DNA of 64,000 nucleotides from an uncultured Actinomycetes bacterium (GTDB taxonomy: Bacteria > Actinomycetota > Thermoleophilia > UBA2241), in contig CAVPVX010000007.1 in assembly GCA_963709345.1 (NCBI GenBank), forward strand, positions 32,001-96,000, in the 5' to 3' direction. The notes under the pieces are model-generated. The model was not told the origin of the DNA, made no database searches, and was given only the letters and a program-made list of their open reading frames with translations. Every line of letters begins with the position of its first letter. Position 1 is the first letter of the stretch. Made by a program: the position numbers and the translations under genes. This document shows positions 1 through 13,958 of the stretch, one piece after another.

Positions 1-865
1 CGACGGTCAGCTCTGGAGCGCGCACGCCCATGCACGGTTGCGCGCGCCCGTAGGCGTCCACGCTCACGCCGTGCCCGGCGCCGCAGGCGAAGAGCACGTC
101 GCCCGGCGGGCCCATGAACTTGCCGCCGAACTCCGCCATGCTCCGCGCGGTACTCCTCCGGCCGGCGGGTCAGCACGGCCAGCACCTGGTCCGGGTCGAG
201 CCGCAGCCGCCGGATCAGCTCGTTCTTCGCCTCGTCGTCGCGCCGGTTGCGCAGGTCGAACGACATCGAGTAGCCGGGCGGCTTGTCCATCCAGGGGATG
301 GTGGCCGCCCAGGCCTCGAACTCCTCCACCTCATCGCGGTTGGGCGGCAGCAGTGCGCGCCTTGAGCACGAAGGGCACGCTGCGGTCGAGCAGCAGGTCC
401 ACCCCGCGGCGGAACTGGGCGAAGGAGCCGGGCACGCGCGTCACCGCCTCGTAGGACTCCGCGCGCATGCCGTACACCGTGACCTCGACGGTCACGAGCG
501 GCGGCACGCGCGCCAGCAGATCGGCCAGCTCCCGGCGTGATCCGCCGCGCGTTGGTGAAGAGCAGCACCTTCAGCCCAAGGCGCCGGGCGTAGAGGTAGA
601 GCTCCTCGAAGTCGGGGCGCAGCAGCGGCTCGCCGCCGGTGTAGCGGACCTGCAGGCAGCCGAGCGCGGCGGCCTCGTCGAGGATGTCCTCGACCTGCGC
701 CGTGGTCAGCTCGCGGGCGCGCGCCTCACGGTCGCCGGCCGGCAGGTTGATGCAGCAGTGGATGCAGTCGTTGTCGCAGCGCTCGGTGAGCTCGATGTCG
801 AGCTGACCGAGGCGCGAGCCGAGCGGCCGTTCGAGGCGCGTGACGCGGCGGACGTAGTCGCTCAT
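1..865 (-). CDS. Radical SAM/SPASM peptide maturase #2 (partial, runs off the left edge; apparent frameshifts)
   Basis: ATG at 865 gives MSDYVRRV...ELTERCDNDCIHCC (CxxxCxxC), YTGGEPLLRPDF and LFTNA. Other frames continue the protein to the SPASM start LFACGAGHGVSVDAYGRAQPC at about 1-110. Confidence 0.9.
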
Positions 866-881
866 CCTCGCGCCGCTCGGG

Positions 882-1061
882 TCAACTCGACGAGCAACTC
901 TGACAGGGGTCGCCCGTGCCCGCGCAGGGGCAGCCGAAGGCGCTCCCCGGGTCGAACGAGGACTGCGGGTTCTTGCAGGTCGTGAGCACCGCCTCCCGCG
1001 GATCGGTGTGAACGAGGATGCTCAACTCGGGCCGCTTCCGCTGCGAACGCTCCTCAGGCAT
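882..1061 (-). CDS. Putative RiPP precursor peptide B (59 aa, Cys-rich C-terminal core)
   Basis: MPEERSQRKRPELSILVHTDPREAVLTTCKNPQSSFDPGSAFGCPCAGTGDPCQSCSSS. RBS GAGGGGGG precedes the ATG at 1061. It overlaps the stop of the upstream rSAM-kinase gene, and its leader aligns with precursor A. Confidence 0.85.
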   Translation of the reverse strand: MPEERSQRKRPELSILVHTDPREAVLTTCKNPQSSFDPGSAFGCPCAGTGDPCQSCSSS

Positions 1062-3179
1062 CGTTCCCCCCTCTTGAGTAGTACCGCTTGTCCACGAGGC
1101 GCTCGATCTCCGGAACGATCGCCCCGCTCCTGTCGAAGCGCATCTCGTAGGCCGGGACTTCGGCGACGAGGCGCTCCACCACGTCGAAGGTCCTGTGCCA
1201 CCACTCGGCGGTGACGAAGGGACGGATGATGCAGGCGAGGATCCGCCCGGCAACATCCTTGCGGTCCTTCAGCGGCACGAGCTCGTTGCGCTCGTCCTGC
1301 CGCAGGAAGACGAGCGCCCGCAGCGGCGCCTGCGACGCCGAGACGAGCGGCACGGTGCCGTGGCTCCACGTACCGTGGATCCAGAAACCGGGGCCGGCGG
1401 CCGGTCCCGCGGCTTGCGACGGCACCGGCGGCGGCCCTTCCGGCCACCGGCGCACGATGTTGCGGTCGTCGCAGAGCACCTCCACGCGCTCACCCAGGCG
1501 CTTCGCGCAGCAGTTCCATGGTCGTGGACTTGCCGGCCTCCGAGTGACCGATGAAGCAGCAGGCCGGCGCCGTCCAGCACGACGGCGCCCGAGTGAAGAA
1601 AGAGCCCGTCACGGTCGGCCAGCACGCGCGCCAGCAGGATCTGGTCGGTCGGGAACATGGTGACCGAGGCCAACCCTCCGCGTGCCCAGGCGTCGGAGCG
1701 CGTGACGTCGTTGTAGATGCGCGCCCGAGTGTGGTCGTCGTTGAACGTCACGACCCGATGCAGGTCGCCGGGCACGCCCTGCCGTCGTCGGCCGGCGAGA
1801 TGCCCAGGTAGACCCACGACGAGGCCTGCCGGTAGATCGGCCCACGGCGGCCGCCGGTACACCTCGCGACCCAGCTCGCGGCCGTCGCAGATCCGGCAGG
1901 CCGAAGTGGTGCCGGAGCCGGATGACGGGCAGGCCGTCGGCGCCGGCGGCCGCGCCGTCCGCATCCGGCGCCTCGAACGCCCGGAACTTCCTGAGAAGGT
2001 GTCCTCGGCGATCGGCCGGTCCGCGTCCACCTGCACCGTCATGCCGCCGATCTGCCAGGTGCGCCGGTGCTCCCGGCGCCAGTCGTCCTTGAAGCGCCGC
2101 GCCTCCTTCGCCACCTCGCACAGATACTCCACCTTCGCGCCGTGCCGGCCGTGCTCCAGGTACCCGTACACGCCGCACCAGCGGCAGTCGTCGCGCAGGT
2201 CGCAGGAGGCGCACCCTTCGAGATACTCGACGCCTCCGCACGCGCGGTCGGCCACAGCCGGGAGCTCCTCCTCCCAGATGCGCTCGAGCGCGCCCGGCGC
2301 GATGCCGCCGGCACCCCGCAGCGAGAAGCGCAGGGCGGGGTCCTTGATGAAGCTGCAGTGCGCGACGCCGCCGTACGGGTCGACGTGAAGGTCGCGGCGG
2401 CCCTCGATGCAGCGCGCGTACACGCGGTCGTCGCCGGCTGCGCCGCGCACCCCGCCGCAGGCGACGTCCGCGGCCGCTCTCGGCCACGCCGCGTCGTCGG
2501 CCGGCACGGGCTCGTCGAGGGCGATCACGTCCGCCGGGTCCAGGCGCTGCCGCGCGATCTCCGCGTTCCGCGCCGCGTCGCCGCAGGCGCTCATGAAGAG
2601 CCACGCCGCGCCGACGCGCCAGTGCGGGCTCAGCGACGCCGCCAGGTCCTTCATCCGCCTCCCACTCGTGCCAGTTGTCGCGCATGGGGATGAGCTGCAC
2701 GGTGAAGCCGGCCCCGGCCTCCGCAGGCGCGCGAACCCCTCCATGGTGGCGTCGAACGACCCGGGCGTCCTGGTGACGTGGTCGTGGACCTCGGCGGTCG
2801 CCCCGTACAGGGCGACCATCTTGTTGCCCTTGCGCGTCAGCAGCTGGGCGATCTGCGGGGTGATCAGCGCGCCGTTGGTGTTGAGCGAGTAGCCGACCGC
2901 CTTGCGCGTGACGTAGTCGAAGAGCTCGGAGAAGTCCTCGCGGAGCATCGGCTCGCCGCCGGAGATGGACCAGCGGCGCGTGCCGAGCGCGCGAGCCTGG
3001 TCGACGACCGCGCGCCACTCGTCGGTGGTCAGCTCGGCGGCGCGCTCGTCCGGCGTGTCCGCGGCCCACAGCCAGCAGTGGCGGCAGCGGTTGGAGCATC
3101 GATACGTGAGGTCGATGGAGGCTTCAAGCGGGAGGCGGGGCGACGCGGCGCAGCTAACTGACCGTCGACGTCGCTGCAC
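1054..3179 (-). CDS. Radical SAM/SPASM maturase #1 fused to a C-terminal HprK-like P-loop kinase domain (several apparent frameshifts; start approximate)
   Basis: DLTYRCSNRCRHCW, ISGGEPMLR, LNTNGAL. SPASM cysteines RCIEG..VDPYG..HC and CASCDLRDDCRWC..YLC. Then LHSGAV, Walker A GHSEAGKST (1523-1549, shifted frame), LCDDRN and GTWSHG. Ends with ORF 1054..1485. Confidence 0.85.
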
Positions 3180-3375
3180 TCGCCACGGTCGACGAGGCCG
3201 TCAGGTTCGGAGCCCAGTCGTGCAGTGCGCGCATGACCGTGGTCGCTGAGGCCGTCACGGCGGCCGGGAACAGCCCCTGTACGCCGGCGGTCTTGCACGC
3301 CGTCAGCACGCACTCCTCCGCACCGGCGCGCTGCAGCACGATCAGCCGTGGCGTCTCCCAGGATCTGGTCTCCAT
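3154..3375 (-). CDS. Putative RiPP precursor peptide A (C-terminus uncertain, possible frameshift)
   Basis: METRSWETPRLIVLQRAGAEECVLTACK... with RBS AAGGGAG. W-x-x-P-x-L leader and E-x-VLT-x-CK motif shared with precursor B. An alternative frame gives CAHCTTGLRT* at 3233-3201. Confidence 0.75.
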   Translation of the reverse strand: METRSWETPRLIVLQRAGAEECVLTACKTAGVQGLFPAAVTASATTVMRALHDWAPNLTASSTVASAATSTVS

Positions 3376-3443
3376 CTACATCTCCCTTGCCGCCTCGCGG
3401 TCGGACGGCCGCCGACCCTGGTGCACAGTCGAGTGCCATGCCG

Positions 3444-3452
3444 AGCATAGCA
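3444..3452 (-). promoter_or_regulatory. Candidate extended -10 promoter for the RiPP operon
   Basis: TGCTATGCT (TGn-TANNNT) about 70 nt upstream of precursor A. Motif match only. Confidence 0.45.
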
Positions 3453-3480
3453 CCGCGAAGCGCCGCCCCCGACGTCGGCT

Positions 3481-3876
3481 TCAGGCGCGTGCGTCTCTCG
3501 TCTGCTCGGGAAACGCCCGCAGGAGCGCCCTGTCGAAGGTGAGCACCTCCGTATCCAGGCGCTCGGCCGCGGCCACGAAGACCGCGTCGTAGACAGCGTG
3601 GTCACAGCGCAGCGCAAGCCCCACCGCGGCCCGCCACAGGTCCTGGGTAGGCAGCACACGCTCGACCAGGGACTCTCCGTGGTCGAGCGCCCCCAGGAAC
3701 TCGGCGGGGCCGACGCTCAGCCTCCTCACCCACTGCCACACCACGTTGCCGTATTCGGCAAAGAAGAGGTCGGGGACGACGATGGAGTCCGCGCTGGAGA
3801 GCGCCTGCCACGCCGGCTCGCGGTGCTCCTTGGCCCCCAGCACGGCGTAGGCGATCACGTTGGTGTCGACGATCAC
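3481..3876 (-). CDS. vapC: PIN-domain toxin (VapC/FitB family)
   Basis: MIVDTNV N-terminus, E..NV, YDAVFVAAA and LTFDRAL. 131 aa, directly downstream of an RHH antitoxin. Confidence 0.92.
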   Translation of the reverse strand: MIVDTNVIAYAVLGAKEHREPAWQALSSADSIVVPDLFFAEYGNVVWQWVRRLSVGPAEFLGALDHGESLVERVLPTQDLWRAAVGLALRCDHAVYDAVFVAAAERLDTEVLTFDRALLRAFPEQTRDARA

Positions 3877-3882
3877 GAGCAG

Positions 3883-4107
3883 TCAGCGCCGGCCCTCGTC
3901 GAGCCAGCCGTCCACGTCGCTCGCCGCTATCTCGGCCTGGTGAGCCCACCGCTCGCGGATCGCCCCGAGGACCTGATGCCGCGTGGGATACCGCGCCGCC
4001 AGGGTCGTGCGCAGTTCCTGCTCGAGAGAACGGCCGTGCGCATCGGCGGACGCCTTGATGCGCGCCAGGAGTTCGTCGGAGAGCCGTCGTATGGTCACGG
4101 AAGCCAT
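3883..4107 (-). CDS. Ribbon-helix-helix antitoxin (FitA/Arc-like)
   Basis: MASVTIRRLSDELLARIKASADAHGRSLEQELR is the typical FitA-like N-terminus. 74 aa. Confidence 0.9.
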   Translation of the reverse strand: MASVTIRRLSDELLARIKASADAHGRSLEQELRTTLAARYPTRHQVLGAIRERWAHQAEIAASDVDGWLDEGRR

Positions 4108-4137
4108 CGCTGATCACCAGAGCCAGACTACCCCTGG

Positions 4138-4167
4138 TGCCAGCATACTGCAAGCATCGTGATTGCA
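4138..4167. promoter_or_regulatory. Candidate antitoxin operator: three TGCnnGCA-like boxes at 11-bp period
   Basis: TGCCAGCA-tac-TGCAAGCA-tcg-TGATTGCA just upstream of the RHH antitoxin, resembling FitA-type TGCTATCA half-sites. Confidence 0.55.
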
Positions 4168-4289
4168 CCCTCAAGCCGGATCGAACAAGGCGCCTGGCCG
4201 CGGCAGGCCGCGCCGTTTTCGATAGTATCTGAGGCGGCCGCGCCGCCCGCAACGCGCGGCCGGCCCGGGGCTCACAGGAGGAGCGGCGG

Positions 4290-6208
4290 TTGGCCGACGC
4301 GCCACGCAGACCCAAGATCGCCGACGCCCTGCGCCTCGCCGACGCCGTGCGCCTCGTCTGGCGCGCGGCGCCCGGCTGGACGGCGCTCAACGCGGTGCTC
4401 GCCGTCCTCCAGGGCATCGTGCCGCTGCTCGCCGTGTACCTGATGAAGCTCATCGTCGACACGGTGACGGCCGGCATCGCCGACGCGGACCACGCCGCCG
4501 CCTTCCGCACCGCCGCCATGTACGTGGCGCTGGCGGCGGCGGTGGGCCTGGCGGCGGCGCTCCTGCGCTCGCTCGCCGCACTCACCTCCGAAGCGCTCGG
4601 TCAGGTCGTCACCGACCACGTGAGCGACCTCATCCACGCGCAGTCCATCGCCGTCGACCTCGAGTACTACGAGGACCCCGCCTACTACAACACGCTGCAG
4701 CGGGCGCAGGACGGAGGCGCTCGTCCCGGCCCACCAAGATCGTGAGACGGACCTGCTCACGACCGGCGCAGAGCGGCATCTCGCTGGTCTCGCGATGGCC
4801 GGCCTCCTCTTCACCCTCCACTGGAGCATGCGGCCGTCATCGTCGTCGTGGCCGGCGATCCCGGGGCCTGGGTGCGCCTGCGCTACTCGCGGCCGGCTGT
4901 ACCACTGGCAGCGCAAGCGCACGCGAGACCGAGCGCCAGGCCTGGTACTTCCACTGGCTGCTCACCGCGCGGTCGCACGCCAAGGAGGTCCGGCTCTTCG
5001 AGCTGGGCGAGCTCTTCCGGCCATCGTTACGCGCGACCTGCGCACCGTGCTCCGCGGCGAGCGCATCGGGATCGCCGCGGCAGCGCGCCCTCGCCGATGT
5101 CGGACGCCGGCGCCGTGGCCGTCGCTCGCCATCTTCGGCACCGTTCGCGTACATCGCCTGGCCGCACGGTTACCGGCAGCGATCACGCTCGGCGATTGGT
5201 CATGTACTACCAGGCCTTCCAGACGCGGCCGAGCAGTCCATGCAGGAGCGTCCTCAGGGCCTCGCCGGGCTGTACGAGGACAACCTCTTCCTCACCTACT
5301 ACCACGAGTTCATGGACCTGGAGCCGCGGGTGCTCGCGCCGAGCGGAGCCGGCGCCCGTGCCCGCGGCCGATGCGCGCAGGCGTACGCTTCGACGCCGTC
5401 GACTTCCGCTACCCGGCCGCCGACCGGACGGCTCTGAGCGGGATCGACCTCACCATCCGCCCCGGCGAGGCGTGCGGCCCTCGTCGGCGACAACGGCTCG
5501 GGCAAGACGACGCTGGTCAAGCTGCTCTGCCGGCTCTACGACCCGTCGGCCGGCAGCGATCACGCTCGACGGCGTCGATCTGCGCGAGCATGGACTGCCG
5601 AGCTGCGCCGCCAGATGAGCGTCATCTTCCAGGACTTCGTCGCAGTACCAGCTGACCGCGCGCGAGAACATCTGGGTCGGCGACGTGGATCTGCACCCGG
5701 ACGAGCCGGCCACTCGGGCGGCGGTGGAGGCCGCCGCCGGACGCCGGCGCAGACCGGCGTCATCGGCGGCCTCCGCGACGGCTACGACACCGCGCTCGGG
5801 CAAGTGGTTCGAGGACGGCGAGGAGCTCAGCATCGGCGAGTGGCAGAAGGTGGCGCTGGCCCGCGCCTTCCTCCGCGACGCGCCGATCCTGGTACTCGAC
5901 GAGCCGACCAGCGCGCTCGACCCCGAGGCCGATGGCAGGTGTTCGAGCACATCCGCCAGCTCGCCCAAGGCCGCGCGGTCGTGCTCATCAGCCACCGATT
6001 CAGCACCGTACGCAGCGCCGACCGCATCACATCCTGGATCGAGGCGGCACGGATCGTCGAGAGCGGCACGCACGAGGAGCTGCTGGCGCTCTCGGGAAGG
6101 TACGCGCAGATGTACGAGGTGCAGGCGCGCGCCTATTCCGTGGAGCCCGGCGCACCCCTGGGAGACGGCGCCGAACCCCTCGCCTCCGGCGGTCCACCCG
6201 CACAGTGA
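4290..6208 (+). CDS. ABC exporter, fused permease/ATPase (many apparent frameshifts)
   Basis: TTG start after AGGAGG. N-terminal TM segments, [17 protein letters not shown], Walker [10 protein letters not shown] (about 5485-5512), [24 protein letters not shown] and ISHRFSTVR are split across frames. Confidence 0.88.
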
Positions 6209-6667: not shown

Positions 6668-7846
6668 TCAGGCGCCGGCGCGGACGCGAGCGAGAAGCGC
6701 GTCGACGAGCTGCCCCTCGGGCAGTGTCTCGACGCGCTCGCCGTGGTCGAACAGCACGCCCTCCCCGGCCCCGGCGGCGATGCCGTAGTCGGCGTGCCTG
6801 GCCTCTTCGGGGCCGTTGACCCGGCAGCCCATGACGGCCACCGTGATCACCCGGCGGGCCAGCGCCGGCTCGGCGCCGAGCCGGCGCTCGACCTCCTCGG
6901 CGAGGCCGACGATGTCGACCTCGGTGCGCCCGCAGGTGGGGCAGCTGATCACGTCGGGGCCGCGCCGCCGGAGCCCGAGCGCGGCCAGGATCTGCCAGGC
7001 GACCCGGACCTCTTCCACTGGGTCGCCGGTCAGGCTCACGCGGACGGTGTCGCCGATGCCGTCGGCCAGCAGGGCGCCGATGCCGACGGCGCTCTTGATC
7101 GTGCCGCTCCAGACCGTGCCCGCCTCCGTCACACCAACGTGCAGCGGAGCATCGCTGCGGCCGCGCAGGAGCCGGTACGCGGCGATCGTGTCCGGCACCG
7201 ACGACGACTTGACGCTCAGCTTGTACGCCCTGAAGCCCCACTCCTCGAACTGCCCGGCCCAGCGCAATGCCGCTTCGACGAGCGCCCCCGGAGCATCGCC
7301 GGCGGCGCGGTCGCGCAGATCTCGCGGCAGCGACCCGGCGTTGACTCCGATGCGGATCGCAACGGGCACTTCGCGCACGCCGGAGCCGGCCGGCACCGCC
7401 GTCCCGGCGGCGGCGCGAACGATCTCGCGCACGTGCTTCTCCCCCATCGTCCCGGGGTTGATCCGCACCCCGGCGGCCCCGGCGTCGATGGCCGCCAGCG
7501 CCAGCCGCCAGTCGTAGTGGATATCCGCAATGATGGGCACGCGGGGCGCGGCGCGGTCGCCGTCCGCGGCCGCGGCGCGAGCGGTCGCCGGCGCGTCGCC
7601 GGACGGCGCGTCCGTCACGCGGCCGAGCGCCGGAGCCTCGCGCACGAGGTGCGCGAATGCCGGCGCCTCTTCGGCGCTCGGCAGGCTGACGCGGACGATC
7701 TCGCAGCCCGCTGCAGCCAGAGCGCGCACCTGGGCGAGCGTCGCTTCCGCGTCGCCGGTCCTGGTACAGGTCATCGACTGCACGGCGACCGGAGCGCCGC
7801 CGCCGACCGGCACCGGACCGACCATGAGGCGGTGCGCGCTACTCAC
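6668..7846 (-). CDS. ispG: 4-hydroxy-3-methylbut-2-en-1-yl diphosphate synthase
   Basis: VQSMTCT, IADIHYD, RINPG, IRIGVNAGSL, LHVGVTEAG, GIGDTVRVSL, SCPTCGR, VMGCRVNGP. GTG start at 7846. Confidence 0.97.
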   Translation of the reverse strand: MSSAHRLMVGPVPVGGGAPVAVQSMTCTRTGDAEATLAQVRALAAAGCEIVRVSLPSAEEAPAFAHLVREAPALGRVTDAPSGDAPATARAAAADGDRAAPRVPIIADIHYDWRLALAAIDAGAAGVRINPGTMGEKHVREIVRAAAGTAVPAGSGVREVPVAIRIGVNAGSLPRDLRDRAAGDAPGALVEAALRWAGQFEEWGFRAYKLSVKSSSVPDTIAAYRLLRGRSDAPLHVGVTEAGTVWSGTIKSAVGIGALLADGIGDTVRVSLTGDPVEEVRVAWQILAALGLRRRGPDVISCPTCGRTEVDIVGLAEEVERRLGAEPALARRVITVAVMGCRVNGPEEARHADYGIAAGAGEGVLFDHGERVETLPEGQLVDALLARVRAGA

Positions 7847-8888
7847 GCGGGGTCCTGCGCGACGCCGCGGGCTGAGGCTCGCCGGCGTGCATGCGGTACC
7901 ACTCCCACGTCTCCGCCAGTCCCTCGGCGAGCGTCGTGTCGGCGTCCCAGGCCAGCACCCAGCGGCCGCGGCCCACGTCGGCGCACGAGCGCTTGATGTC
8001 GCCCTCGCGGGCGGGCCCGTGCTCCACCGACAGCGAGACGCCGGTCTGCGCTTCGATCTCTCCGACGAGCTGCAGGAGGCTCGTCTCCAGCCCGGAGCCG
8101 ACATTCACGACTGACGAGCCCGTCAGCGGCCGCTGCAGAGCGCGGGCGATCGCCCACGCCACGTCGCCCACGTACACGAAGTCCCGGGTCTGCGCGCCGT
8201 CGCCGAATATGGTGACCCCGGCCCGGGCGGGCGAAGCCCCACCCGGCTCACCGCCACCCACCGCCGACGCGCCCTCGGCGGCGGCGGCGAGAAAGCGGCT
8301 GATCACGCCGGAGTAGGCCGACCCGGGATCCTGCCGCGGGCCGAAAACATTGAAGAAGCGGAGGCAGACGGCGGTGATCTGGTGTGCGTCACCGGCGCTT
8401 ACGCACGCCTCTTCGGCGGCGAGCTTGGCGCCGGCGTACGGGCTGAGCGGTCGTGCCTGCATGGTCTCGGCGACGGGCACCTGCGCCGCGTCGCCGTACA
8501 CCGCGCAACTCGACGCCAGCACGAACCTCGGCACCTCGGCGTCCACGGCCTCACGCAGCGCGTTGACCGCTCCGCCATGCGTCACCGAGTTGCAGCCCAG
8601 AGGATCCTCGAGCGAGAGGGCGACGGAGGGGATCGCCGCCAGGTGGACGACCGCGTCACAACCGGCCACGGCGTCGCGCATGCGCACCTCGTCGCGGACG
8701 TCTCCCTCGATCACCTGCAGGCCGCCGCCGTACTCGGCGGCGAGCCGCCAGGCGTCGTCGAGGTTCTCCTCCCTGCCGGTGCTGAAGTCGTCGAGCACAC
8801 GCACGTCGTCGCCCCCCGTGAGGAGTGCGTCCACCACGTGAGAGCCTATGAACCCGGCGCCGCCGGTGACGAGAGTGATTCCGCCCAT
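7839..8888 (-). CDS. NAD-dependent epimerase/dehydratase (UDP-sugar 4-epimerase-like)
   Basis: VTGGAGFIGSH, SPYAGAK (YxxxK), LRFFNVFGPRQDP, TRDFVYV. Confidence 0.93.
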   Translation of the reverse strand: MGGITLVTGGAGFIGSHVVDALLTGGDDVRVLDDFSTGREENLDDAWRLAAEYGGGLQVIEGDVRDEVRMRDAVAGCDAVVHLAAIPSVALSLEDPLGCNSVTHGGAVNALREAVDAEVPRFVLASSCAVYGDAAQVPVAETMQARPLSPYAGAKLAAEEACVSAGDAHQITAVCLRFFNVFGPRQDPGSAYSGVISRFLAAAAEGASAVGGGEPGGASPARAGVTIFGDGAQTRDFVYVGDVAWAIARALQRPLTGSSVVNVGSGLETSLLQLVGEIEAQTGVSLSVEHGPAREGDIKRSCADVGRGRWVLAWDADTTLAEGLAETWEWYRMHAGEPQPAASRRTPRE

Positions 8889-8968
8889 GCACGCATCTTA
8901 GTCCACGGCGCGCCGCCCTGCCGCCTCACCGGCGCGGGCACCCCGAGCGAGAGGCCCGCTGATCCGGA

Positions 8969-10282
8969 TCAGCCGCCGAAGAGCCGCTTGAAATCGTTGA
9001 ACGTCAGAAAGAGGAACAGCATGACGAGCAGGACGGTGCCGAAGGCGAACAGGCGTTCGAGGATGCGCGCGTCGAGCCGTCGCCCGCGCACCTTCTCGAT
9101 GAGGTTCACGGCGATGTGGCCACCGTCGAACGGCAGGATCGGCAGCAGGTTGATCAGCCCGAGGTTGAAGCTGAGGAAGGCGAGCAGGATCGGGTACCAG
9201 CTCTGCTGCACCGCCTGGCGGCTGACGTCGATGATGCCGACGGGGCCGACCGCTCCGTCCGGCCCGGTGGCGCTGATCCGGCCGCTGAACAGCCAGTAGA
9301 ACCCGGTGAAGGTGCCGACGACGACGTCCTTGAAGCCGATCAGCCCGAGCTTGACGGCCTCGACCGGGCCGGGCCTGTCACGCACCACTCCGGCGCGCAC
9401 CCCAAGGTAGCCGCTGCCGGGCGCGTCGGGGTTGTCGATGAGGCTCACGGAGACTGTGCGCTCGGGCCCGCCGGCCGCGGGCCGGTAGCCGAGTGCGATC
9501 TCCTTGCCCGGGTTGGCGCGGAAGTACGCCGAGGCCTCGTCCCAGGTGCTCCACGTCGCGCCGTCGGCGCCGGTCAGCGTGTCGCCGGCCACAAGGCCGG
9601 CCTCGGCCGCCGGCGCCCCGGGAACGACCTCGTCGAGCGTAAGCGTCGCCGTGGGCAGCCCCTGGATGCCGATGAAGAGGATCATGATCACGGCGGCCGC
9701 GACGAAGTTCATCACCGGGCCGGCCGCGATGGTCACGTTGCGCTTCCATACGGCCTTCTTGTAGTACACGCGGTCGCCGATGTCCTCCGGGACCTCCTCC
9801 TCGGGCATCATGCCGCTGATCTTGCAGAACCCGCCCAAGGGGATGATCCCCACACCGTACTCGGTCTCTCCGCGCGTCCGGCGCAGAGCGGCCGGAGGGA
9901 ACCCGACGTAGAACTTCTCGACGCGCATGCCGAAGGCCTTGGCGGCGATGAAGTGGCCGAACTCGTGCACGGTTATCAGCAGGGCCAGACCGAGGATCGC
10001 GACGACCCAGACCCACTGACCCATGACGAGCGCGACGACGACGGCGCCGCCCAGCAGCAGTGACCACGGGCTCAGGGCCCGCCGCTCCGGGGTGGGCGAC
10101 CTGGTGGAAGCCGGCGAAGTCCCGCCAGACGATCCGGTCGCATCCTCGGACGCCGCGGCGCCGGTGTCGCCGCCCGATGCCCCGGCGCCGGTGTCGCCGC
10201 CCGATGCCCCAGCGCCGGTGTCCCCGCCCGATGCCCCGGCGCCGGTGTCGCCGATCTTGGAGATGTCCTGCTCGTTGCTCAT
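8969..10282 (-). CDS. rseP: RIP metalloprotease RseP (M50) with PDZ domain
   Basis: HEFGH, IPLGGFCKISGM, AGPVMN, NLLPILPFDGGH. Lies between dxr and ispG. Confidence 0.95.
   Translation of the reverse strand: MSNEQDISKIGDTGAGASGGDTGAGASGGDTGAGASGGDTGAAASEDATGSSGGTSPASTRSPTPERRALSPWSLLLGGAVVVALVMGQWVWVVAILGLALLITVHEFGHFIAAKAFGMRVEKFYVGFPPAALRRTRGETEYGVGIIPLGGFCKISGMMPEEEVPEDIGDRVYYKKAVWKRNVTIAAGPVMNFVAAAVIMILFIGIQGLPTATLTLDEVVPGAPAAEAGLVAGDTLTGADGATWSTWDEASAYFRANPGKEIALGYRPAAGGPERTVSVSLIDNPDAPGSGYLGVRAGVVRDRPGPVEAVKLGLIGFKDVVVGTFTGFYWLFSGRISATGPDGAVGPVGIIDVSRQAVQQSWYPILLAFLSFNLGLINLLPILPFDGGHIAVNLIEKVRGRRLDARILERLFAFGTVLLVMLFLFLTFNDFKRLFGG
10158..10253. repeat. 27-bp tandem repeat (about 3.5 copies) encoding GDTGAGASG in the RseP N-terminus
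   Basis: Unit gcgccggtgtcgccgcccgatgccccg repeated directly. Confidence 0.9.
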
Positions 10283-10394
10283 GTCGCTACACGATACCCG
10301 CTGAAGGTTGCGTCTGCATTAACGCACGGTCGTGACGCTCGGTTCGCCGCCCGCACCGGCCGCGCCACGAGGCGCCGTCGGCGAAGCGCGGCGC

Positions 10395-10600
10395 CACCGG
10401 CGACTCTACCTGCGGCACCACTCCCGGCACCACCGGCGACTCCACCTGCGGCACCATTCCCGGCACCACCGGCGACTCTACCTGCGGCACCATTCCCGGC
10501 AGCACCGGCGACTCTGCTGGTGGCACCACTGGCAGCACCACTGGCGGCACCACTGGCGGCACCACTGGCGGCACCACTGGCGGCACCACTGGCGGCACCA
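10395..10600. repeat. Compound tandem repeat: 36-bp unit x about 3.5, then 12-bp unit x about 6-7
   Basis: caccggcgactctacctgcggcaccactcccggcac repeated head to tail, then ggcaccactggc repeats. No spacers. Confidence 0.9.
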
Positions 10601-10766
10601 CGACTCGCACCACCACCGGGACTGCCGACGGTTCGCCTCTTGGCCGCCGGAAGACCGCTCGGCGTGTCGCGCCGCGGGCACGAGGCCACTGCCGTGAAGG
10701 CGCGTGTGATGAAGGCGGGTACGGTGAAGGCCAGCACGGCGCGGCGAGAGGCGGCGCGACGACGGA

Positions 10767-12099
10767 TCAGAGCGGGCCGCCGGCGGCTTCTCGAGCGAAG
10801 CGGCGCGCTTCGGCATCACTCTCGAACACGTCGTCGAGGCTTTCGACCGGCTCGTCGCCCAGCCAGGTGAGGCACTTCTCGACGACTTCGGCGATGGCGA
10901 GAAACGCGAGTCGCCCGGCGAGGAACGCCTCGACCGCGACCTCGTTCGCGGCGTTGAGCACGATCGGCGCCGCGACGGTGCGAGGCCGGCACGGTGTCTC
11001 GATCCCGGGCGCCGCGGAGCCGGATGCGGCCGAGTCTCCACGCGCTTCGCACTCGACGAACGCGGCCTTCTTGCCGGCTTCCTCGGCCAGTTCGAGACAC
11101 CGGAAGGTCGCCGTGTCGGGCCGTTCGAAGGCGATCTGCGTGGCGAAGAGGTCGAGACGGCGCACCTGCGGCAGCAGCGGCCGGTCCGGGTAGCCGAGGG
11201 CGTAGCCGATCGGCGTGCGCATGTCGGGGACGCCGAGGTGCGCGAGGACGGCGCCGTCGGAGAAGCGCGCCATGCTGTGCACCGTGCTCCGCGGATCGAG
11301 CACCACGGTGATGTGCTCGTAGGGCACGCCGAAGAGGTAGTGCGCCTCGATCAGCTCGAGGCCCTTGTTCATGAGCGTCGCAGAGTCGACGCTGATCTTG
11401 GGACCCATGGTCCAGTTGGGATGGGCAAGCGCCTGCTCGGGAGTGACGGCGGCCAGGTCCACGGCCTTGCGGCCGCGGAACGGGCCGCCGGAGCCGGTCA
11501 GCAGCAGTTCCTCGACTGCTGTTCCGGGGTCTGCGCCGGCGGGGGGCGTCGGCGCTCGCGGCGCCTCGGCCCGCGTGGAGGCACTGGAAGATGGCGCTGT
11601 GCTCGCTGTCGACGGGCAGGATCAGCGAGCCGGTACGCCGTGCCGCGTCGAGGACGAAGGGGCCGCCGGCGACCATGCTCTCCTTGTTCGCCAGAGCCAG
11701 CGTGGCGCCGACCTCGAGAGACGCCATCGTGGCGCGCAGACCGGCGGCGCCGACGATGCCGTTGAGCACCATGAGCTCGGCGCCTTCCGCGGCGGCGGTA
11801 GCGGCCGCCGCCGAGATCAGCTCGTACACGCCGGTCTCGCCGGCGTGTACCGTCAGTTCCGGCATGCGCGTGGACGCTTCTGCCGCGGCCCGCGCATCGT
11901 GCAGACAGATGACACGCACCCCGTGCGCGGCCGCCTGTTCGAGCAGGGCGGCCACGCCGCTGCCGGCGGCAAGCCCGACGAGCCGGACGGACGGCACGGC
12001 CGGCAGCACCTCGAGAGCCTGCCGGCCGATCGAGCCGGTGGCGCCCAGTATGAGCAGGTGTCTGGCCGCAGTCTCCGTTATGGCCGCAGTCTCCTTCAT
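10767..12099 (-). CDS. dxr: 1-deoxy-D-xylulose 5-phosphate reductoisomerase (apparent frameshift near 11520-11560)
   Basis: LGATGSIG, LALANKES, PVDSEHSAIFQC in one frame. LLTGSGGPFRG, HPNWTMGPKISVDSATLMNKGLELIEA and LNAANEVAV in the other. Confidence 0.95.
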
Positions 12100-12125
12100 G
12101 GCCGCAAGACTACCACGACCGCCGC

Positions 12126-13958
12126 TCACTGCCGGGGCAGACGGGCGAGCACGTCTTCGATGCGGTCGCCCGCCGGTCGTCGCAGCATCGCGTACCACGG
12201 GCTGACGGCCGTGATCGCGTAGCCGAACCCGCCCGTGGCCTCCAGTTCCGGCCGGCTCACGCCGGCCGTCTCCTCGAGCCGGACGACCACCGACGGCGCC
12301 ACCCGGTGGCGCCGGTAGTAGCTCAGCGTCGACTTCGGGAGCGGCGCCGAGCCATCCGCAAGCATCAGCTGGCAAGTGTTGGCGGCGATGGCGCCGGGCC
12401 AGTACAGGTAGTACCCGGCGCCCCACGGGTAAATGAGCAGTTCGTCGCCGTCGCGAGTCTGCGCCTCCAGATCGGTGGCGAAGCGTGTGAGGTCGTCGTG
12501 CTGCTCATCTGAGACGCCGATGCCCCACCAGGGCCCGGCGCTCACCCGCCGGTCGAGCTCGCTCCAGGCGATCCCTCCATGCTGGAACTGGACCTGGAAG
12601 GCGAGCGTCACGAGCACCACCGCGGCGAGCCCGGCAAAGGCCGGCCACCGGCGGCGGACCGCACCACCGGCGTCGCCCATCGTCTCGAGGCTCCACGCCA
12701 GGAAAAGGCCGCTGGCGAACAGCGCCGGGAAGAGGCCGACGGCAGCGTGCTCGAACCCGTCGGCGCTGGTGTACGCCGTCATCGCCCCCACGACCAGCGC
12801 CGGCGCCCATACCCACAGAAGGACGCGGGCGCCGTCCTCGCGGCGGCTCTCGGCGACGAAGAGGTAGAGATACGGCGCCCCCAGAGCGTAGGCGATCACC
12901 GCGCCGGAGACGCCCAGTCCCGACGTCGTGCCGGTGAGCCAGAGCGCGACGGGCACGCCGAGCAGCGCCCAGCGCGCGGCGTGCGGCCGGCGGCGGTAGA
13001 CGACGTAGACGAGCGCTGCCGCAAGCACCAGATACCACTGCCGGCCGGCGAAGACGAAGAAGTCGGCGGCCACCTGCACGGCCTTCGACGCACCGGCGAG
13101 CTGCCCGAGGTCCCTGGCGGAGCGCAGCGTGTACTCCCAGCTCCGCACGAGGTTCGCGCGCCCCGCGAGCAGCAGCACCCCGGCCGCGACGGGGGCCACG
13201 ACGAGCGTCCCTCCGAGCGCCCAGGCGCTGACCGCACGCCAGGCGCGAGGCCCGGTGGGCGGGCCGTCCGGGTCGGGCGGATGGAGAAAGGCGCCCGCAG
13301 CCACCATCGCGACAGCCCTTCGCCCCACGGAGAAGGCGAGAAAGACGGCCATGAACGGCACGGTGAAGAGGACGGTCGGGTACGCGACACAGGCGAAGCC
13401 GATGGCGGCGCCCGAGGCCAGGGCGTATCGTCTTCGCCCACCGGTCACGTACACCGCGCCGAGCGCCGCTCCCGCCGCGAGCAGACCGGCGCCCAGGGTG
13501 TTGGCCGTGAGTTGCGGCGTCTCGAACAGGATGACGGTGAGGAACGGCGCGGCGACGAGCGCCGCAAGCTCGGGCCGCAGGAGCCGCCGCGCGACCACGA
13601 ACACGGTCACGGCGACGAGCACGGCGAACCCGAGGTAGAGGTGCCGCCCGTAGATCACGAGTCCGGTCGAGTCCCCACCCCCCAGCAGCGCGTAGAGCTT
13701 GAAGAAGGGATACGAGAGCAGGCCGGCGGCCTGAGCGAGGTTCTGCTCGTTCACGAAGGGGCGGTCGCCGAGCGCCCAACGCCACGGCACGAGCACCGAG
13801 AAGCCCTCGTCGACAAGGTCCACCCCGCGCCAGAGCCGCCACCACGTGAAGGCCAGCGCGGCGGCCACGACGCCGCCCGCCGCAAGCGTGAGCCGGCGCC
13901 CACCCCCGGCGCTCACCGGCCGTTCAGCGGGTCCCGGCTCCGCCGTGGTCACCGGCAC
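12126..13958 (-). CDS. Polytopic membrane protein, possible GT-C-type glycosyltransferase
   Basis: 610 aa with many TM segments. N-terminal GVDLVDEGF acidic motif after TM1 and a soluble C-terminal domain. Confidence 0.65.
   Translation of the reverse strand: MPVTTAEPGPAERPVSAGGGRRLTLAAGGVVAAALAFTWWRLWRGVDLVDEGFSVLVPWRWALGDRPFVNEQNLAQAAGLLSYPFFKLYALLGGGDSTGLVIYGRHLYLGFAVLVAVTVFVVARRLLRPELAALVAAPFLTVILFETPQLTANTLGAGLLAAGAALGAVYVTGGRRRYALASGAAIGFACVAYPTVLFTVPFMAVFLAFSVGRRAVAMVAAGAFLHPPDPDGPPTGPRAWRAVSAWALGGTLVVAPVAAGVLLLAGRANLVRSWEYTLRSARDLGQLAGASKAVQVAADFFVFAGRQWYLVLAAALVYVVYRRRPHAARWALLGVPVALWLTGTTSGLGVSGAVIAYALGAPYLYLFVAESRREDGARVLLWVWAPALVVGAMTAYTSADGFEHAAVGLFPALFASGLFLAWSLETMGDAGGAVRRRWPAFAGLAAVVLVTLAFQVQFQHGGIAWSELDRRVSAGPWWGIGVSDEQHDDLTRFATDLEAQTRDGDELLIYPWGAGYYLYWPGAIAANTCQLMLADGSAPLPKSTLSYYRRHRVAPSVVVRLEETAGVSRPELEATGGFGYAITAVSPWYAMLRRPAGDRIEDVLARLPRQ

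What the first reader, a model, noticed from the sequence alone, without database searches (positions are those of the whole stretch)
1..6208. Apparent uncharacterised RiPP cluster: two precursor/rSAM pairs, a kinase fusion and an ABC exporter
Seen: on the minus strand the order is precursor A, rSAM/SPASM-kinase fusion, precursor B, second rSAM/SPASM, tightly packed or overlapping, with a divergent ABC exporter. Known: SPASM radical SAM enzymes next to short Cys-containing peptides make thioether or C-C crosslinks (sactipeptides, ranthipeptides). Two SPASM enzymes plus an HprK-like protein recalls the bioinformatically defined SynChlorMet cassette, whose product I do not know to be characterised. 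Inference: this is a crosslinked and possibly phosphorylated peptide pathway in a little-studied actinobacterial class. I cannot confirm novelty without a search. PqqD/RRE and peptidase genes are not visible and may lie beyond the left edge.
Basis: partly seen in the sequence, partly recalled or inferred. Interest (0 to 1): 0.9.

Follow-up and report, generated by a model that had tools for sequence, protein, structure and literature searches.

The report
Radical-SAM peptide cluster with kinase fusion
This is a real gene cluster for small cysteine-containing peptides that are chemically cross-linked, probably phosphorylated and exported; it belongs to a very widespread but experimentally unstudied family, and this copy is riddled with what are most likely sequencing errors.

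Summary
The cluster runs on beyond the left edge. There lie the predicted PqqD-type leader-binding protein, a signal-peptidase-like/GNAT fusion and a third radical SAM/SPASM gene. Two VapBC toxin-antitoxin pairs are inserted.

Nearly every cluster gene is broken by single-base indels. Relatives and public metagenome contigs lack these indels, and the substitutions look selected, so they are probably assembly errors.

The kinase-like domain has an HprK/PEPCK fold and falls in Pfam's ScmC family. All parts score below the NCBIfam SynChlorMet cut-offs.

The same cassette was found in 523 places in a collection of 185,579 species genomes, bacterial and archaeal. Its precursors form an uncatalogued family:
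- a WxxPxL leader;
- an invariant Cys-Lys;
- mostly three core cysteines;
- a last Cys six residues before a C-terminal Ser (108 of 116 peptides end in Ser).

Likely mechanism: leader binding, Cys cross-links, Ser phosphorylation, leader removal, export.

I found no paper on it. Earlier follow-ups in this scan met the same family in other genomes.

The parts
1..865 (-). rSAM2: second radical SAM/SPASM maturase, 5' two thirds. The gene continues to about window -283 (C7:31717).
   Evidence: Pfam Radical_SAM 52.5 bits on ORF 215-865. CX3CX2C at residue 30. The unbroken G004 orthologue (394 aa) aligns in four segments, 73-93% identical, in frames -3/-1/-2/-3. Single extra bases lie near 536, 359 and 146 relative to G004. 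Contigs of runs X1-X4 leave one base out at 146; X2-X4 at 531; X2 and X3 at 359.
882..1061 (-). Precursor B, 59 codons plus stop. It has a PxL...EAVLxxCK leader without the usual Trp. The core has four Cys and ends CQSCSSS.
   Evidence: ORF; coordinates. It matches the family pattern: a Cys six residues before the C-terminal Ser. The G004 orthologue sits in the same place between the fusion and rSAM2.
1054..2033 (-). ScmC/HprK-like P-loop domain, the C-terminal half of the fusion. It is broken into at least three frames. The Walker A motif GHSEAGKSTT lies in ORF 1490-1612.
   Evidence: tblastn of the G004 fusion and of the G006 stand-alone protein. The family alignment has invariant G-x4-GK-T, DDR and His columns. 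The AlphaFold model of the G006 orthologue has pLDDT 92.7. HprK/P chains align at Z 10.3-11.0, rmsd about 3 A over 121-126 residues; PEPCK at Z 11.2-11.8. NCBIfam ScmC matches 43 of 43 members, all under the cut-off.
2034..3179 (-). rSAM1: radical SAM/SPASM half of the fusion protein. The start is uncertain (GTG at 3179 or a little downstream). Two compensating frame changes lie inside it.
   Evidence: Pfam Radical_SAM 64.7 bits. CX3CX2C at residue 28, and CX2CX5CX2C followed by a Cys 19 residues on. The alternative frame carries the conserved AGAGFTVQLIPMRDNWHEW stretch, which stands in a rSAM1 fragment of same-genus G011.
3154..3375 (-). Precursor A. The leader is intact (W-E-T-P-R-L ... E-E-C-V-L-T-A-C-K). 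The core as it stands has no Cys and is probably frameshifted.
   Evidence: ORF. The G004 orthologue has three core Cys and ends CSSIGAS. In the window the neighbouring frame reads ...E-C-S-D-V-D-G-Q beside the S-stop of the open frame.
3481..3876 (-). VapC-type PIN toxin, intact. It is an insertion, not part of the pathway.
   Evidence: Pfam PIN 49.3 bits. Absent at this place in G004. Contigs of X3 and X4 skip 3461 to 4208.
3883..4107 (-). VapB/FitA-like ribbon-helix-helix antitoxin, intact.
   Evidence: Pfam FitA-like_RHH 48.7 bits. NCBIfam VapB 23.2 bits, under the cut-off.
4290..6208 (+). MsbA-like ABC exporter (permease plus ATPase), broken by many single-base indels.
   Evidence: The fragments hit MsbA, HlyB and CydC models. 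The unbroken G006 orthologue (636 aa) scores MsbA 266 bits, under the cut-off. Indels relative to G004 lie at 4272-4768 and relative to run contigs at 5235-5596. An ABC gene was found in 29 of 80 related loci.

Best explanation
This is one copy of a widespread, experimentally unstudied RiPP cassette of the ScmC (SynChlorMet-like) type. The steps below are marked as shown or inferred.

(1) Two short genes encode precursors. Each has a leader carrying the [W]xxPxL motif and an invariant ...EExVLxxCK junction. Each has a Ser/Gly-rich core, in the wider family mostly with three Cys, a Cys six residues before the end and a C-terminal Ser. This is shown for the family. In the window it is shown for precursor B and for the leader of precursor A.

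(2) The PqqD-type protein just left of the window binds the WxxPxL leader and presents it to the enzymes. This is inferred from the solved lasso and LPP complexes between the leader-binding protein (RRE) and the leader. A complex prediction gave weak support.

(3) Three radical SAM/SPASM enzymes (rSAM1, rSAM2, rSAM3) each install one cross-link from a core Cys, most likely thioethers as in sacti- and ranthipeptides. This is inferred. The number of core Cys tends to follow the number of rSAM genes.

(4) The HprK/PEPCK-fold domain fused to rSAM1 uses ATP to phosphorylate a Ser of the precursor, most likely the near-invariant C-terminal Ser. This is inferred from the paeninodin-type kinases; the LPP kinase instead uses core Ser3.

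(5) The archaeal-type signal-peptidase-like enzyme cuts off the leader. Its fused GNAT domain may acetylate the new N-terminus. This is inferred from LppS and from the fusion.

(6) The MsbA-like ABC exporter secretes the product (inferred).

The frameshifts in this copy are most likely consensus errors of the assembly (about 0.8), so the organism probably has a working cluster.
For: Architecture and orthologues.

Cassette conservation:
- 523 tblastn-confirmed places among 591 pattern matches in the species-genome collection.
- In the 80 best loci: kinase-like domain 80, rSAM 73, PqqD 60, S24-like peptidase 47, ABC 29, PF14907 26. Many of these loci are cut short by contig ends.
- The fusion form is present in 60 of 80 loci.
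- 962 clusters at E<=1e-30 among 1.84 billion representative proteins.

Precursors, 116 complete candidates in 65 of 84 loci searched:
- the last residue is Ser in 108, Thr in 6 and other in 2;
- the core has three Cys in 84 and two in 25;
- the last Cys lies exactly six residues from the end in 102 of 114.

Leader logo: W 0.90, P 0.92 and L 0.93 in WxxPxL register; E 0.99, L 1.0, C 1.0, K 0.97 at the junction.

Cys number against rSAM number (39 well-flanked loci):
- with three rSAM genes, 52 of 68 precursors have three core Cys;
- with one or two rSAM genes, 5 of 6 have two.

All three own rSAMs keep CX3CX2C and the seven-Cys SPASM pattern.

Kinase-like domain:
- model pLDDT 92.7;
- HprK/P at Z 10.3-11.0 and PEPCK at Z 11.2-11.8;
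- Walker A, DDR and His columns are invariant;
- ScmC matched by 43 of 43 members, HprK_rel_B by 34 and HPr(Ser) kinase by 15, all under their cut-offs.

Literature:
- HprK homologues phosphorylate the C-terminal Ser of lasso precursors (PMC8498205, passages read).

Complex of PqqD with the leader: weak support.
- Score 0.46 against a best control of 0.01.
- The mark was reached by 116 of 157 solved complexes and 2 of 215 mismatched pairs. At 0.60 or under it was reached by only 18 of those 157, and by both mismatches that passed.
- The runs agree in at least 95% of contacts; partner pLDDT is at least 51.
- Like complexes are solved, so the pass may come from memory.

Frameshifts are private to this assembly:
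- G004 lacks them.
- Contigs of four runs from four studies leave out one base at 146; X2-X4 at 531; X2 and X3 at 359. X2 and X4 add one base at 1990.
- Mismatches to G004 sit at codon position 3 (17-18%) far more than at positions 1 and 2 (4-7%). There were no stops in 10 of the 11 listed HSPs.
- The genome has many other stretches without long ORFs.
Against: No chemistry is shown. The cross-link type, the phosphorylated residue and the cleavage site are all inferred.

- The one characterised kinase that works with a signal-peptidase-like leader peptidase, LppK, phosphorylates core Ser3 and not a C-terminal Ser, and it does not accept Thr. Here 6 of 116 precursors end in Thr.
- The kinase-like domain is below every curated cut-off: ScmC 31-39 bits against 125 on the three orthologues scored singly; Pfam Hpr_kinase_C under its cut-off of 33.3, 11.7 bits for the first member.
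- The whole two-domain protein resembles PEPCK as well as it resembles HprK, so a non-protein substrate is not excluded.
- Pfam SPASM is just under its threshold (20.7 against 21.5).
- Precursor B lacks the leader Trp. The core of precursor A has no Cys as assembled.
- No PF14907 nucleotidyltransferase lies near the cluster in this genome.
- The Cys-to-rSAM trend rests on few loci with one or two rSAMs, and related loci are not independent.
- The two VapBC pairs are intact while their neighbours are broken, which would also fit real decay of the cluster.
- The contigs laid come from relatives (mostly 88-95% alike), not demonstrably from this strain.
Confidence: 0.6

Rival explanations
1. The cluster in this organism is a genuine pseudogene graveyard. 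The indels are real, two toxin-antitoxin pairs have moved in, and no peptide is made here.
For: - There are at least 20 frame-breaking indels in about 7 kb.
- The region is among the lowest 3% of 1528 six-kb windows for long-ORF cover.
- The two VapBC pairs inside it are intact.
- Only 7 of 24 other same-genus genomes have the kinase-like gene, so loss is common.
Against: - The indels are nearly all single bases, often insertions outside homopolymers.
- Seventeen other 6-kb windows of this genome have no long ORF at all, and contig-wide cover is only 0.46-0.66. That points to assembly quality.
- There are no stop codons inside the frame-consistent segments, and substitutions concentrate at third codon positions.
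- Contigs from four studies lack the extra bases.
Confidence: 0.2
2. The kinase-like domain phosphorylates the C-terminal Ser only as a leaving group. Phosphate is then eliminated, and the Cys six residues upstream adds to the resulting dehydroalanine. This would give a C-terminal lanthionine-type ring made without any lanthipeptide synthetase, while the rSAM enzymes make the other links.
For: - The spacing is fixed: the last Cys lies exactly six residues before the end in 102 of 114 precursors, and the end is Ser or Thr in 114 of 116.
- The kinase domain is fused to a cross-linking enzyme in 60 of 80 loci.
- From general knowledge (recalled): class II to IV lanthipeptide synthetases work by phosphorylation followed by elimination.
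Against: - No lyase or cyclase domain was seen in the cassette with the queries used.
- A C-terminal residue with a free carboxylate is a poor substrate for elimination (recalled chemistry).
- Characterised RiPP HprK homologues leave the phosphate on.
Confidence: 0.12
3. The cassette makes a peptide-derived redox cofactor or metal-binding peptide (as for PQQ or mycofactocin) rather than a secreted cross-linked peptide.
For: The best NCBIfam matches of the rSAMs include the mycofactocin maturase, PqqE and the heme-pathway enzymes AhbD and NirJ. The peptides carry four conserved Cys, counting the one at the junction.
Against: - All those matches are far below their cut-offs (80-130 bits against 265-650).
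- An exporter is part of the cassette.
- Loci carry up to 11 diversified precursors, as in L043. That is typical of secreted peptides and not of a cofactor.
Confidence: 0.05
4. It is simply a member of the already catalogued SynChlorMet cassette (ScmC, ScmD, ScmE, ScmF).
For: ScmC, ScmD, ScmE and ScmF are among the top NCBIfam matches of the corresponding proteins. Pfam 38.1 puts the domain in PF27840 ScmC. The taxa also fit: Syntrophobacterales, Chlorobiaceae and methanogens.
Against: - All four equivalog models fail by a wide margin: ScmC 31-39 against 125, ScmD 34.7 against 100, ScmE and ScmF about 49-100 against 400.
- The same holds for the copies from Chlorobiaceae, Syntrophobacterales and Methanotrichaceae.
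- The usual form here has three rSAM genes and a fusion, not two rSAM genes and a free ScmC.
Confidence: 0.15

Closest known systems
SynChlorMet (SCM) cassette: NCBIfam TIGR04249 ScmC, TIGR04248 ScmD, TIGR04250 ScmE, TIGR04251 ScmF; Pfam 38.1 PF27840 ScmC
   Same: Both combine an HprK-like ScmC protein, a PqqD-type protein and PqqE-like radical SAM/SPASM enzymes. They occur in the same kinds of organisms. ScmC is the best NCBIfam match of the kinase-like domain in 43 of 43 family members.
   Different: All four equivalog cut-offs are missed by a factor of three to five. The common form here has three rSAM genes, one of them fused to the ScmC-like domain, plus a signal-peptidase-like leader peptidase (often with GNAT), an ABC exporter and an identifiable precursor family. 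My recollection, from no call, is that the SCM entry names no precursor.
Linear polyphosphorylated peptides (LPP: LppA, K, B, S, D, N) of Bacillota, Popov et al. 2026, PMC13381572
   Same: Both have an archaeal-type signal-peptidase-like leader peptidase, a discrete PqqD-type leader-binding protein, an HprK-like kinase, an MsbA-like exporter and, in 26 of 80 related loci, a PF14907 nucleotidyltransferase. The leader carries a [Y/W]xxPx[L/V/I] motif.
   Different: LPP has no radical SAM enzyme (0 mentions in the main text), and its product stays linear. Its kinase acts on core Ser3. Its leader is YxxPxVLxHQ. Its cores are not Cys-rich and have variable C-termini.
Phosphorylated lasso peptides (paeninodin, pseudomycoidin)
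   Same: An HprK homologue phosphorylates the C-terminal Ser of the linear precursor, and a nucleotidyltransferase can decorate the phosphate. The leader has WxxP and there is a discrete leader-binding protein (PMC8498205; PMC13381572).
   Different: The lasso clusters carry a lasso cyclase and a B2 cysteine protease, which do not appear among the ORFs and family matches of this cluster. Here ring formation, if any, would be by radical SAM/SPASM enzymes on Cys.
Sactipeptide and ranthipeptide maturases (AlbA, SkfB, StsB, PapB, CteB type)
   Same: Both involve radical SAM/SPASM enzymes beside short Cys-containing precursors and depend on a leader-binding protein. SkfB and PqqE are among the only four solved structures matched by sequence.
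   Different: No equivalog model is reached (for example StsB 54-95 bits against 625, and PapB 52-53 against 340). Here there are three paralogous enzymes per cassette, a kinase fusion and a C-terminal Cys-x5-Ser rule.

Membership tests
SynChlorMet cassette (NCBIfam equivalogs) | ScmC: TIGR04249 at or above 125 bits | tested here: not met
   The intact orthologues G006, G018 and G004 score 31.4, 38.6 and 19.6 bits. All 43 members of alignment A2 match, best E 1.3e-13, and none reaches the cut-off. The window's own fragments give no hit.
SynChlorMet cassette (NCBIfam equivalogs) | ScmD (TIGR04248, 100 bits) and ScmE/ScmF (TIGR04250 and TIGR04251, 400 bits) | tested here: not met
   The genome's own PqqD scores 34.7 bits. 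The rSAMs score 49-100 bits, including the copies from Chlorobiaceae, Syntrophobacterales and Methanotrichaceae.
Pfam PF27840 ScmC (Pfam 38.1) | Match to the domain model | tested here: inconclusive
   The model is not in the local Pfam copy. Precomputed labels put PF27840 on all 120 listed homologues of the L029 fusion. The Atlas names PF27840 ScmC on clusters that match the same-genus G006 protein. The window's own broken copy could not be scored.
Radical SAM/SPASM peptide maturases | CX3CX2C cluster motif plus the seven-Cys SPASM pattern | tested here: met
   All three own genes carry CX3CX2C, CX(n)GX4C and CX2CX5CX2C followed by a Cys 19 residues later. Pfam Radical_SAM scores 52-65 bits. 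Pfam SPASM is just under its threshold, 20.7 against 21.5.
Radical SAM/SPASM peptide maturases | Adjacent precursor peptides and a PqqD-type leader-binding protein | tested here: met
   There are two precursors in the window. PqqD (Pfam 66.1 bits) lies 328 bases left of the edge. Precursors were found in 65 of 84 loci searched.
HprK/P-like P-loop kinases | Fold of the HprK/P catalytic domain | tested here: met
   VIA-align gives 1jb1, 1ko7, 1knx and 3tqf at Z 10.3-11.0, rmsd 2.8-3.3 A over 121-126 residues, well above the next unrelated P-loop rows at Z 5.9 or less. Foldseek gives 1kkl_C at E 9.5e-06. The model is of the G006 orthologue.
HprK/P-like P-loop kinases | Walker A motif and the acidic DD pair after it | tested here: met
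   G168, A172, G173, K174, T176, D194, D195, R196, H153, H214 and G215 are invariant in 43 sequences. The window keeps GHSEAGKSTT (ORF 1490-1612) and CDDRNIV (ORF 1054-1485).
HprK/P-like P-loop kinases | Pfam Hpr_kinase_C at or above 33.3 bits | tested here: not met
   25 of 43 members match at E<=1, best 6.3e-05, all under the gathering score.
HprK/P-like P-loop kinases | Transfer of phosphate to a peptide Ser | not testable with these tools
   This needs an assay.
LPP / paeninodin-type processing module | [Y/W]xxPx[L/V/I] leader motif | tested here: met
   In 116 precursors W is 0.90, P 0.92 and L 0.93 in that register. Precursor A of the window reads W-E-T-P-R-L. Precursor B has PxL but no W.
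LPP / paeninodin-type processing module | Archaeal-type signal peptidase I-like leader peptidase | tested here: inconclusive
   Pfam Peptidase_S24 scores 29.9 bits, above its cut-off of 23.3. NCBIfam sigpep_I_arch scores 25.3 bits (own genome) and 42.7 bits (L029), under its cut-off of 51.85. No direct comparison with LppS was made.
LPP / paeninodin-type processing module | PF14907 nucleotidyltransferase in the cluster | tested here: not met
   The only match in this genome scores 24.7 bits (cut-off 31.2) and lies 212 kb away. The gene is present in G006 (122 bits) and in 26 of 80 related loci.
Sactipeptides / ranthipeptides | Cys sulfur to carbon thioether in the product | not testable with these tools
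   This needs mass spectrometry or NMR.
Sactipeptides / ranthipeptides | Match to a characterised maturase model (AlbA, SkfB, StsB, PapB) | tested here: not met
   The best scores are StsB 94.6 against 625, PapB 52.9 against 340, AlbA 65.7 against 850 and SkfB 46.9 against 300.

The most novel reading that the evidence does not exclude
The cassette defines a new RiPP class, common in anaerobic bacteria and methanogenic archaea. Three paralogous radical SAM/SPASM enzymes each tie one cysteine of a short core. A kinase domain welded to one of them modifies the invariant C-terminal serine. The fixed Cys-x5-Ser-COOH spacing would mean that the radical enzyme and the kinase work on the same C-terminal ring. 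That could be a phospho-serine-capped macrocycle, or a ring closed through the activated serine. Neither chemistry has been described for radical SAM peptides.
Probability: 0.35. Interest if true: 0.85.

Novelty: new variant of a known kind. Interest (0 to 1): 0.62.

Why it matters
If the reading holds, hundreds of uncultured species from many phyla, archaea included, share a peptide pathway whose product nobody has seen. The pathway joins two toolkits so far known separately: radical SAM cross-linking, and the kinase / signal-peptidase / leader-binding module of lasso and LPP peptides.

The precursor rules found here make it directly testable by co-expression and mass spectrometry. They are a WxxPxL leader, a Cys-Lys junction, three core Cys, and a Cys six residues before a terminal Ser. 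The fusion of a radical enzyme with a kinase is a ready-made clue to the order and coupling of the steps.

For this window itself the practical message is more modest. It is one, badly assembled, member of that family.

Tried and rejected
- Family scans of the window's own fragments of the kinase-like domain and of both precursors gave nothing. Unbroken orthologues had to be used instead.
- A profile search of the kinase-like family against solved structures was dominated by Walker A matches to ABC transporters. HprK appeared only at E 0.004, so the fold search was needed.
- Sequence searches of rSAM2 and rSAM3 against solved structures gave only distant generic hits: BlsE, SkfB and PqqE at 32-42 bits. 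They give no clue to the cross-link type.
- PF27840 could not be searched in the local Pfam copy.
- No public run holds this stretch well. The best share of sampled words was 0.10, so the reads laid are relatives' contigs. They cannot settle whether this strain's indels are real. I draw no habitat from these small shares.
- Literature searches with no relevant result:
  - 'SynChlorMet';
  - 'HPr kinase' + 'radical SAM' + 'RiPP' + 'SPASM';
  - 'ScmC' + 'radical SAM';
  - 'three radical SAM' + 'RiPP';
  - 'RiPP' + 'radical SAM' + 'SPASM' + 'Methanothrix';
  - 'C-terminal serine' + 'radical SAM' + 'thioether' + 'precursor peptide' + 'kinase';
  - 'HprK' + 'SPASM'.
  - 'radical SAM' + 'HPr kinase' + 'precursor peptide' found one paper (PMC4289311), which only mentions an HPr kinase in lasso clusters.
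  The library lacks most subscription journals, so absence from print is not proven.
- A look-up of earlier scan notes by the G006 protein sequence found nothing.
- I considered a strict one-enzyme-per-Cys rule. The counts support only a tendency.

Full report
**What is in the sequence**

The window is G000:C7:32001-96000, so 32 kb of contig lie to its left. On the minus strand the ORF list and tblastn with unbroken orthologues give this order:
- precursor A (3154-3375);
- a radical SAM/SPASM enzyme whose C-terminal half is a P-loop, kinase-like domain (about 3179 down to 1054);
- precursor B (882-1061);
- a second radical SAM/SPASM gene (865 down to about -283).

The packing is tight. The fusion's stop overlaps precursor B's start, and 16 bases separate precursor B from the next ATG. 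On the plus strand an MsbA-like ABC exporter runs from 4290 to 6208.

**What lies beyond the edge**

I fetched C7:18001-38000 as L006 (window position = L006 position - 14000). Continuing leftwards on the same strand are:
- a PqqD protein (L006 13367-13672; Pfam PqqD 66.1 bits);
- a fusion of an S24/S26-like peptidase with a GNAT acetyltransferase (12263-13237; Peptidase_S24 29.9 bits, Acetyltransf_1 49.3 bits);
- a VapB/VapC pair (11519-12190);
- a third radical SAM/SPASM gene (10257-11467, one frame change).

A second, intact VapBC pair (window 3481-4107) separates precursor A from the exporter. It is an insertion. The same-genus relative G004 has the exporter directly beside precursor A, and contigs of two public runs join 3461 to 4208.

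**The frameshifts**

rSAM2 changes frame three times. The fusion carries at least six single-base indels in its distal 1.4 kb and two more in its proximal half. The exporter has many, and the core of precursor A has lost its cysteines.

Several results suggest these are errors of the assembly rather than decay:
- They are mostly single inserted bases outside homopolymers.
- The genome as a whole has poor long-ORF cover, 0.46-0.66 per contig. Seventeen of 1528 six-kb windows have none, and this region ranks about 40th lowest.
- Mismatches to G004 fall at third codon positions (17-18%) far more than at first or second positions (4-7%). Ten of the 11 listed HSPs contain no stop.
- Contigs from four runs of four studies leave out one base at 146, and three of them (X2-X4) at 531. 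Two of them (X2, X3) leave one out at 359, and two (X2, X4) add one at 1990. These are the frame-change sites.

Two caveats apply. Those contigs come from relatives (best share of sampled words 0.10), not provably from this strain. The intact toxin-antitoxin genes amid broken neighbours would also fit real decay. I put artefact at about 0.8.

**The kinase-like domain**

In G004 and G018 the SPASM end and the P-loop domain lie in one open frame. In G006 and G029 the domain is a free protein of 309-331 residues.

- An alignment of 43 family members has invariant His, G-x4-GK-T and DDR columns.
- AlphaFold gave a confident model of the G006 protein (pLDDT 92.7, pTM 0.89).
- VIA-align placed four HprK/P structures at Z 10.3-11.0 (rmsd about 3 A over 121-126 residues, covering model residues 147-308). 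Two PEPCK structures came at Z 11.2-11.8 over the whole two-domain model. The next P-loop proteins scored Z 5.9 or lower. Foldseek agrees.
- By sequence, NCBIfam ScmC is matched by 43 of 43 members, HprK_rel_B by 34 and true HPr(Ser) kinase by 15, all below their cut-offs. Pfam Hpr_kinase_C is matched by 25 of 43, also below cut-off.
- Pfam 38.1 has a family PF27840 named ScmC. It is precomputed on all 120 listed homologues of a fusion protein and named by the Atlas on clusters matching the G006 protein. I could not run that model myself.

**How widespread the cassette is**

Patterns from the domain alignment matched 591 places in the collection of one genome for each of 185,579 species, and 523 were confirmed by tblastn. 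The 80 best come from Thermoleophilia, other Actinomycetota, Planctomycetota, Chlorobiaceae, Geobacter, Syntrophobacterales, Desulfomonile, Acidobacteriota, Chloroflexota, Omnitrophota, WOR-3, Synergistota and the archaea Methanothrix, Methanoregula and Methanolinea.

With phmmer against all ORFs of these loci I found:
- the kinase-like domain in 80;
- at least one further rSAM in 73;
- PqqD in 60;
- the S24-like peptidase in 47 (GNAT as the best label in 14 more ORFs);
- an ABC exporter in 29;
- a PF14907 nucleotidyltransferase in 26.

Many loci are short contigs, so these are lower bounds. The usual order is rSAM1-kinase fusion, rSAM2, precursor(s), PqqD, peptidase(-GNAT), rSAM3, ABC, PF14907. 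The fusion form is present in 60 of 80 loci.

Against 1.84 billion representative proteins, the domain profile finds 962 clusters at E<=1e-30 and 7,939 at E<=1e-10. Both free forms (about 300 aa) and fused forms (about 650 aa) occur. Within the window's own genus the gene is patchy, in 7 of 24 other genomes.

None of the proteins from Chlorobiaceae, Syntrophobacterales or Methanotrichaceae loci reaches an NCBIfam cut-off either.

**The precursor family**

A pattern search of all six frames found 116 complete precursors in 65 of 84 loci searched. Some loci hold up to eleven.

- Leader. It reads K-K-x-W-x-x-P-x-L-x-V-L-x-R-x-x-P-E-E-x-V-L-x-x-C-K. W is at 0.90, P at 0.92 and L at 0.93, in the WxxPxL register. 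The junction is E 0.99, L 1.0, C 1.0, K 0.97.
- Core. Its median length is 32 residues and it is rich in Ser and Gly. It has three Cys in 84 peptides and two in 25.
- C-terminus. The last Cys lies exactly six residues from the end in 102 of 114. The last residue is Ser in 108, Thr in 6 and something else in 2.

Precursor B of the window obeys the rule, ending C-Q-S-C-S-S-S, and carries an extra Cys. The G004 orthologue of precursor A obeys it too. In the window's precursor A, the neighbouring frame holds a Cys in the right neighbourhood of the S-stop.

Neither Pfam nor NCBIfam matched a G006 member of the family (L018:12077-12256) or the window's two precursor ORFs.

**Known relatives of the parts**

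WxxPxL is the motif that discrete PqqD-type recognition elements of lasso peptides bind. Bacillota lasso leaders use W, and the related LPP family uses Y (PMC13381572; outline, sections 6 and 7 and a term search read).

That paper characterises a module made of an archaeal-type signal-peptidase-like leader peptidase (LppS), a recognition element (LppB), an HprK-like kinase (LppK), an NTP transferase (LppN) and an MsbA-like pump (LppD). LppK puts up to four phosphates on core Ser3, and LppS cuts the leader. Radical SAM enzymes are not mentioned in its main text. Its supplementary data were not opened.

In paeninodin-type lasso clusters the HprK homologue phosphorylates the C-terminal Ser of the linear precursor. 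In pseudomycoidin a nucleotidyltransferase adds hexoses to that phosphate (PMC8498205, passages read).

The present cassette therefore looks like that processing and tailoring module joined to three radical SAM/SPASM core-modifying enzymes.

**Mechanism, with what is shown and what is inferred**

Shown:
- the gene set, its conservation and the precursor rules;
- the intact cluster-binding motifs of all three rSAMs, namely CX3CX2C plus the seven-Cys SPASM pattern;
- the HprK/PEPCK fold and the conserved catalytic-type residues of the fused domain.

Inferred:
- PqqD binds the WxxPxL leader. The complex prediction gave only weak support: score 0.46 against a best control of 0.01. The mark was reached by 116 of 157 solved complexes and 2 of 215 mismatches. 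At 0.60 or under it was reached by only 18 of the 157, and by both mismatches that passed. The runs agree in at least 95% of contacts, and partner pLDDT is at least 51. Like complexes are solved, so this may be recall.
- Each rSAM makes one Cys-based cross-link. In well-flanked loci with three rSAM genes, 52 of 68 precursors have three core Cys. With one or two rSAM genes, 5 of 6 have two. This is a tendency from related, non-independent loci.
- The kinase-like domain phosphorylates the terminal Ser.
- The peptidase removes the leader, and its GNAT partner may acetylate the new end.
- The ABC pump exports the product.

The fixed Cys-x5-Ser spacing and the physical fusion suggest that rSAM1 and the kinase domain act on the same C-terminal segment.

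**Comparison and novelty**

The relation is real at domain-family level. All four NCBIfam equivalog cut-offs are missed, and the usual architecture differs: three rSAMs, a fusion, a peptidase and an exporter. I therefore do not file it as a member.

It works partly like LPP and paeninodin pathways and partly like sacti- and ranthipeptide pathways, without meeting the membership tests of either. Seven full-text searches for the combination found nothing, and an eighth found only one paper on lasso clusters. The library misses most subscription journals.

Earlier follow-ups of this scan described the same family in other genomes (e1-3653201, e1-1080753) and called a divergent relative SCM-type (e1-751501). 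Two others pointed me to the LPP paper. I rechecked their main claims here.

This window adds one more member, from what is probably a Thermoleophilia genome to judge by the titles of the nearest records. It has two toxin-antitoxin insertions and poor consensus quality.

**Verdict**

The system is a new variant of known kinds of peptide pathway: widespread, uncharacterised and readily testable. This copy is not the one to test.

Noticed in passing
window 3481-4107; L006 11519-12190 (window -2481 to -1810); L006 9106-9840 (window -4894 to -4160): Three PIN-type toxin-antitoxin units lie in or beside the cluster. Two are VapBC pairs inserted between cluster genes, both intact. The third is a single 244-residue ORF that joins a ribbon-helix-helix part to a PIN domain. 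A similar RHH-PIN arrangement lies near the cassette in same-genus G011 (L022, about 10173-11179).
   Followed up: partly
whole genome G000: Long-ORF cover is only 0.46-0.66 per contig, and 17 of 1528 six-kb windows have no long high-GC3 ORF at all. Frameshift-dense stretches are therefore a general feature of this assembly, and other findings in this genome may be affected.
   Followed up: partly
L006 3894-7092 (window -10106 to -6908), plus strand: A large secreted protein is read in two overlapping frames (758 and 449 residues), so it is probably frameshifted too. It is followed by a 193-residue membrane protein and a NapH/MauN-like 4Fe-4S protein (Fer4_5, Fer4). I did not identify the first gene with a family search.
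   Followed up: no
window 6668-10282, minus strand: Intact housekeeping genes follow the exporter. By their translations they look like IspG, an NAD-dependent epimerase and the RseP site-2 protease; none was run through a family search. The epimerase and RseP neighbours recur in G001 (L017), where dxr and rseP flank the exporter. The cassette therefore sits at a conserved chromosomal spot in the genus.
   Followed up: partly
L055:13307-13477 (Methanotrichaceae locus): One precursor paralogue has an in-frame stop exactly where the family has the conserved acidic pair of the leader (...REST*ERVL...). Four other complete precursors in that locus are open. It may be a dead paralogue or a sequencing error.
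   Followed up: no
alignment A4, precursor cores: Besides the Cys pattern, many cores carry a Gly-Pro pair about ten residues after the Cys-Lys junction. The first core Cys follows six to seven residues later. This may be a further recognition or turn element.
   Followed up: no
L023 6050-8483 (G029, another family of the same class): This is a minimal form of the system: one rSAM/SPASM gene, one precursor ending in Ser and one free kinase-like gene in a row. No PqqD, peptidase or exporter shows in the high-GC3 ORF list of that locus.
   Followed up: partly
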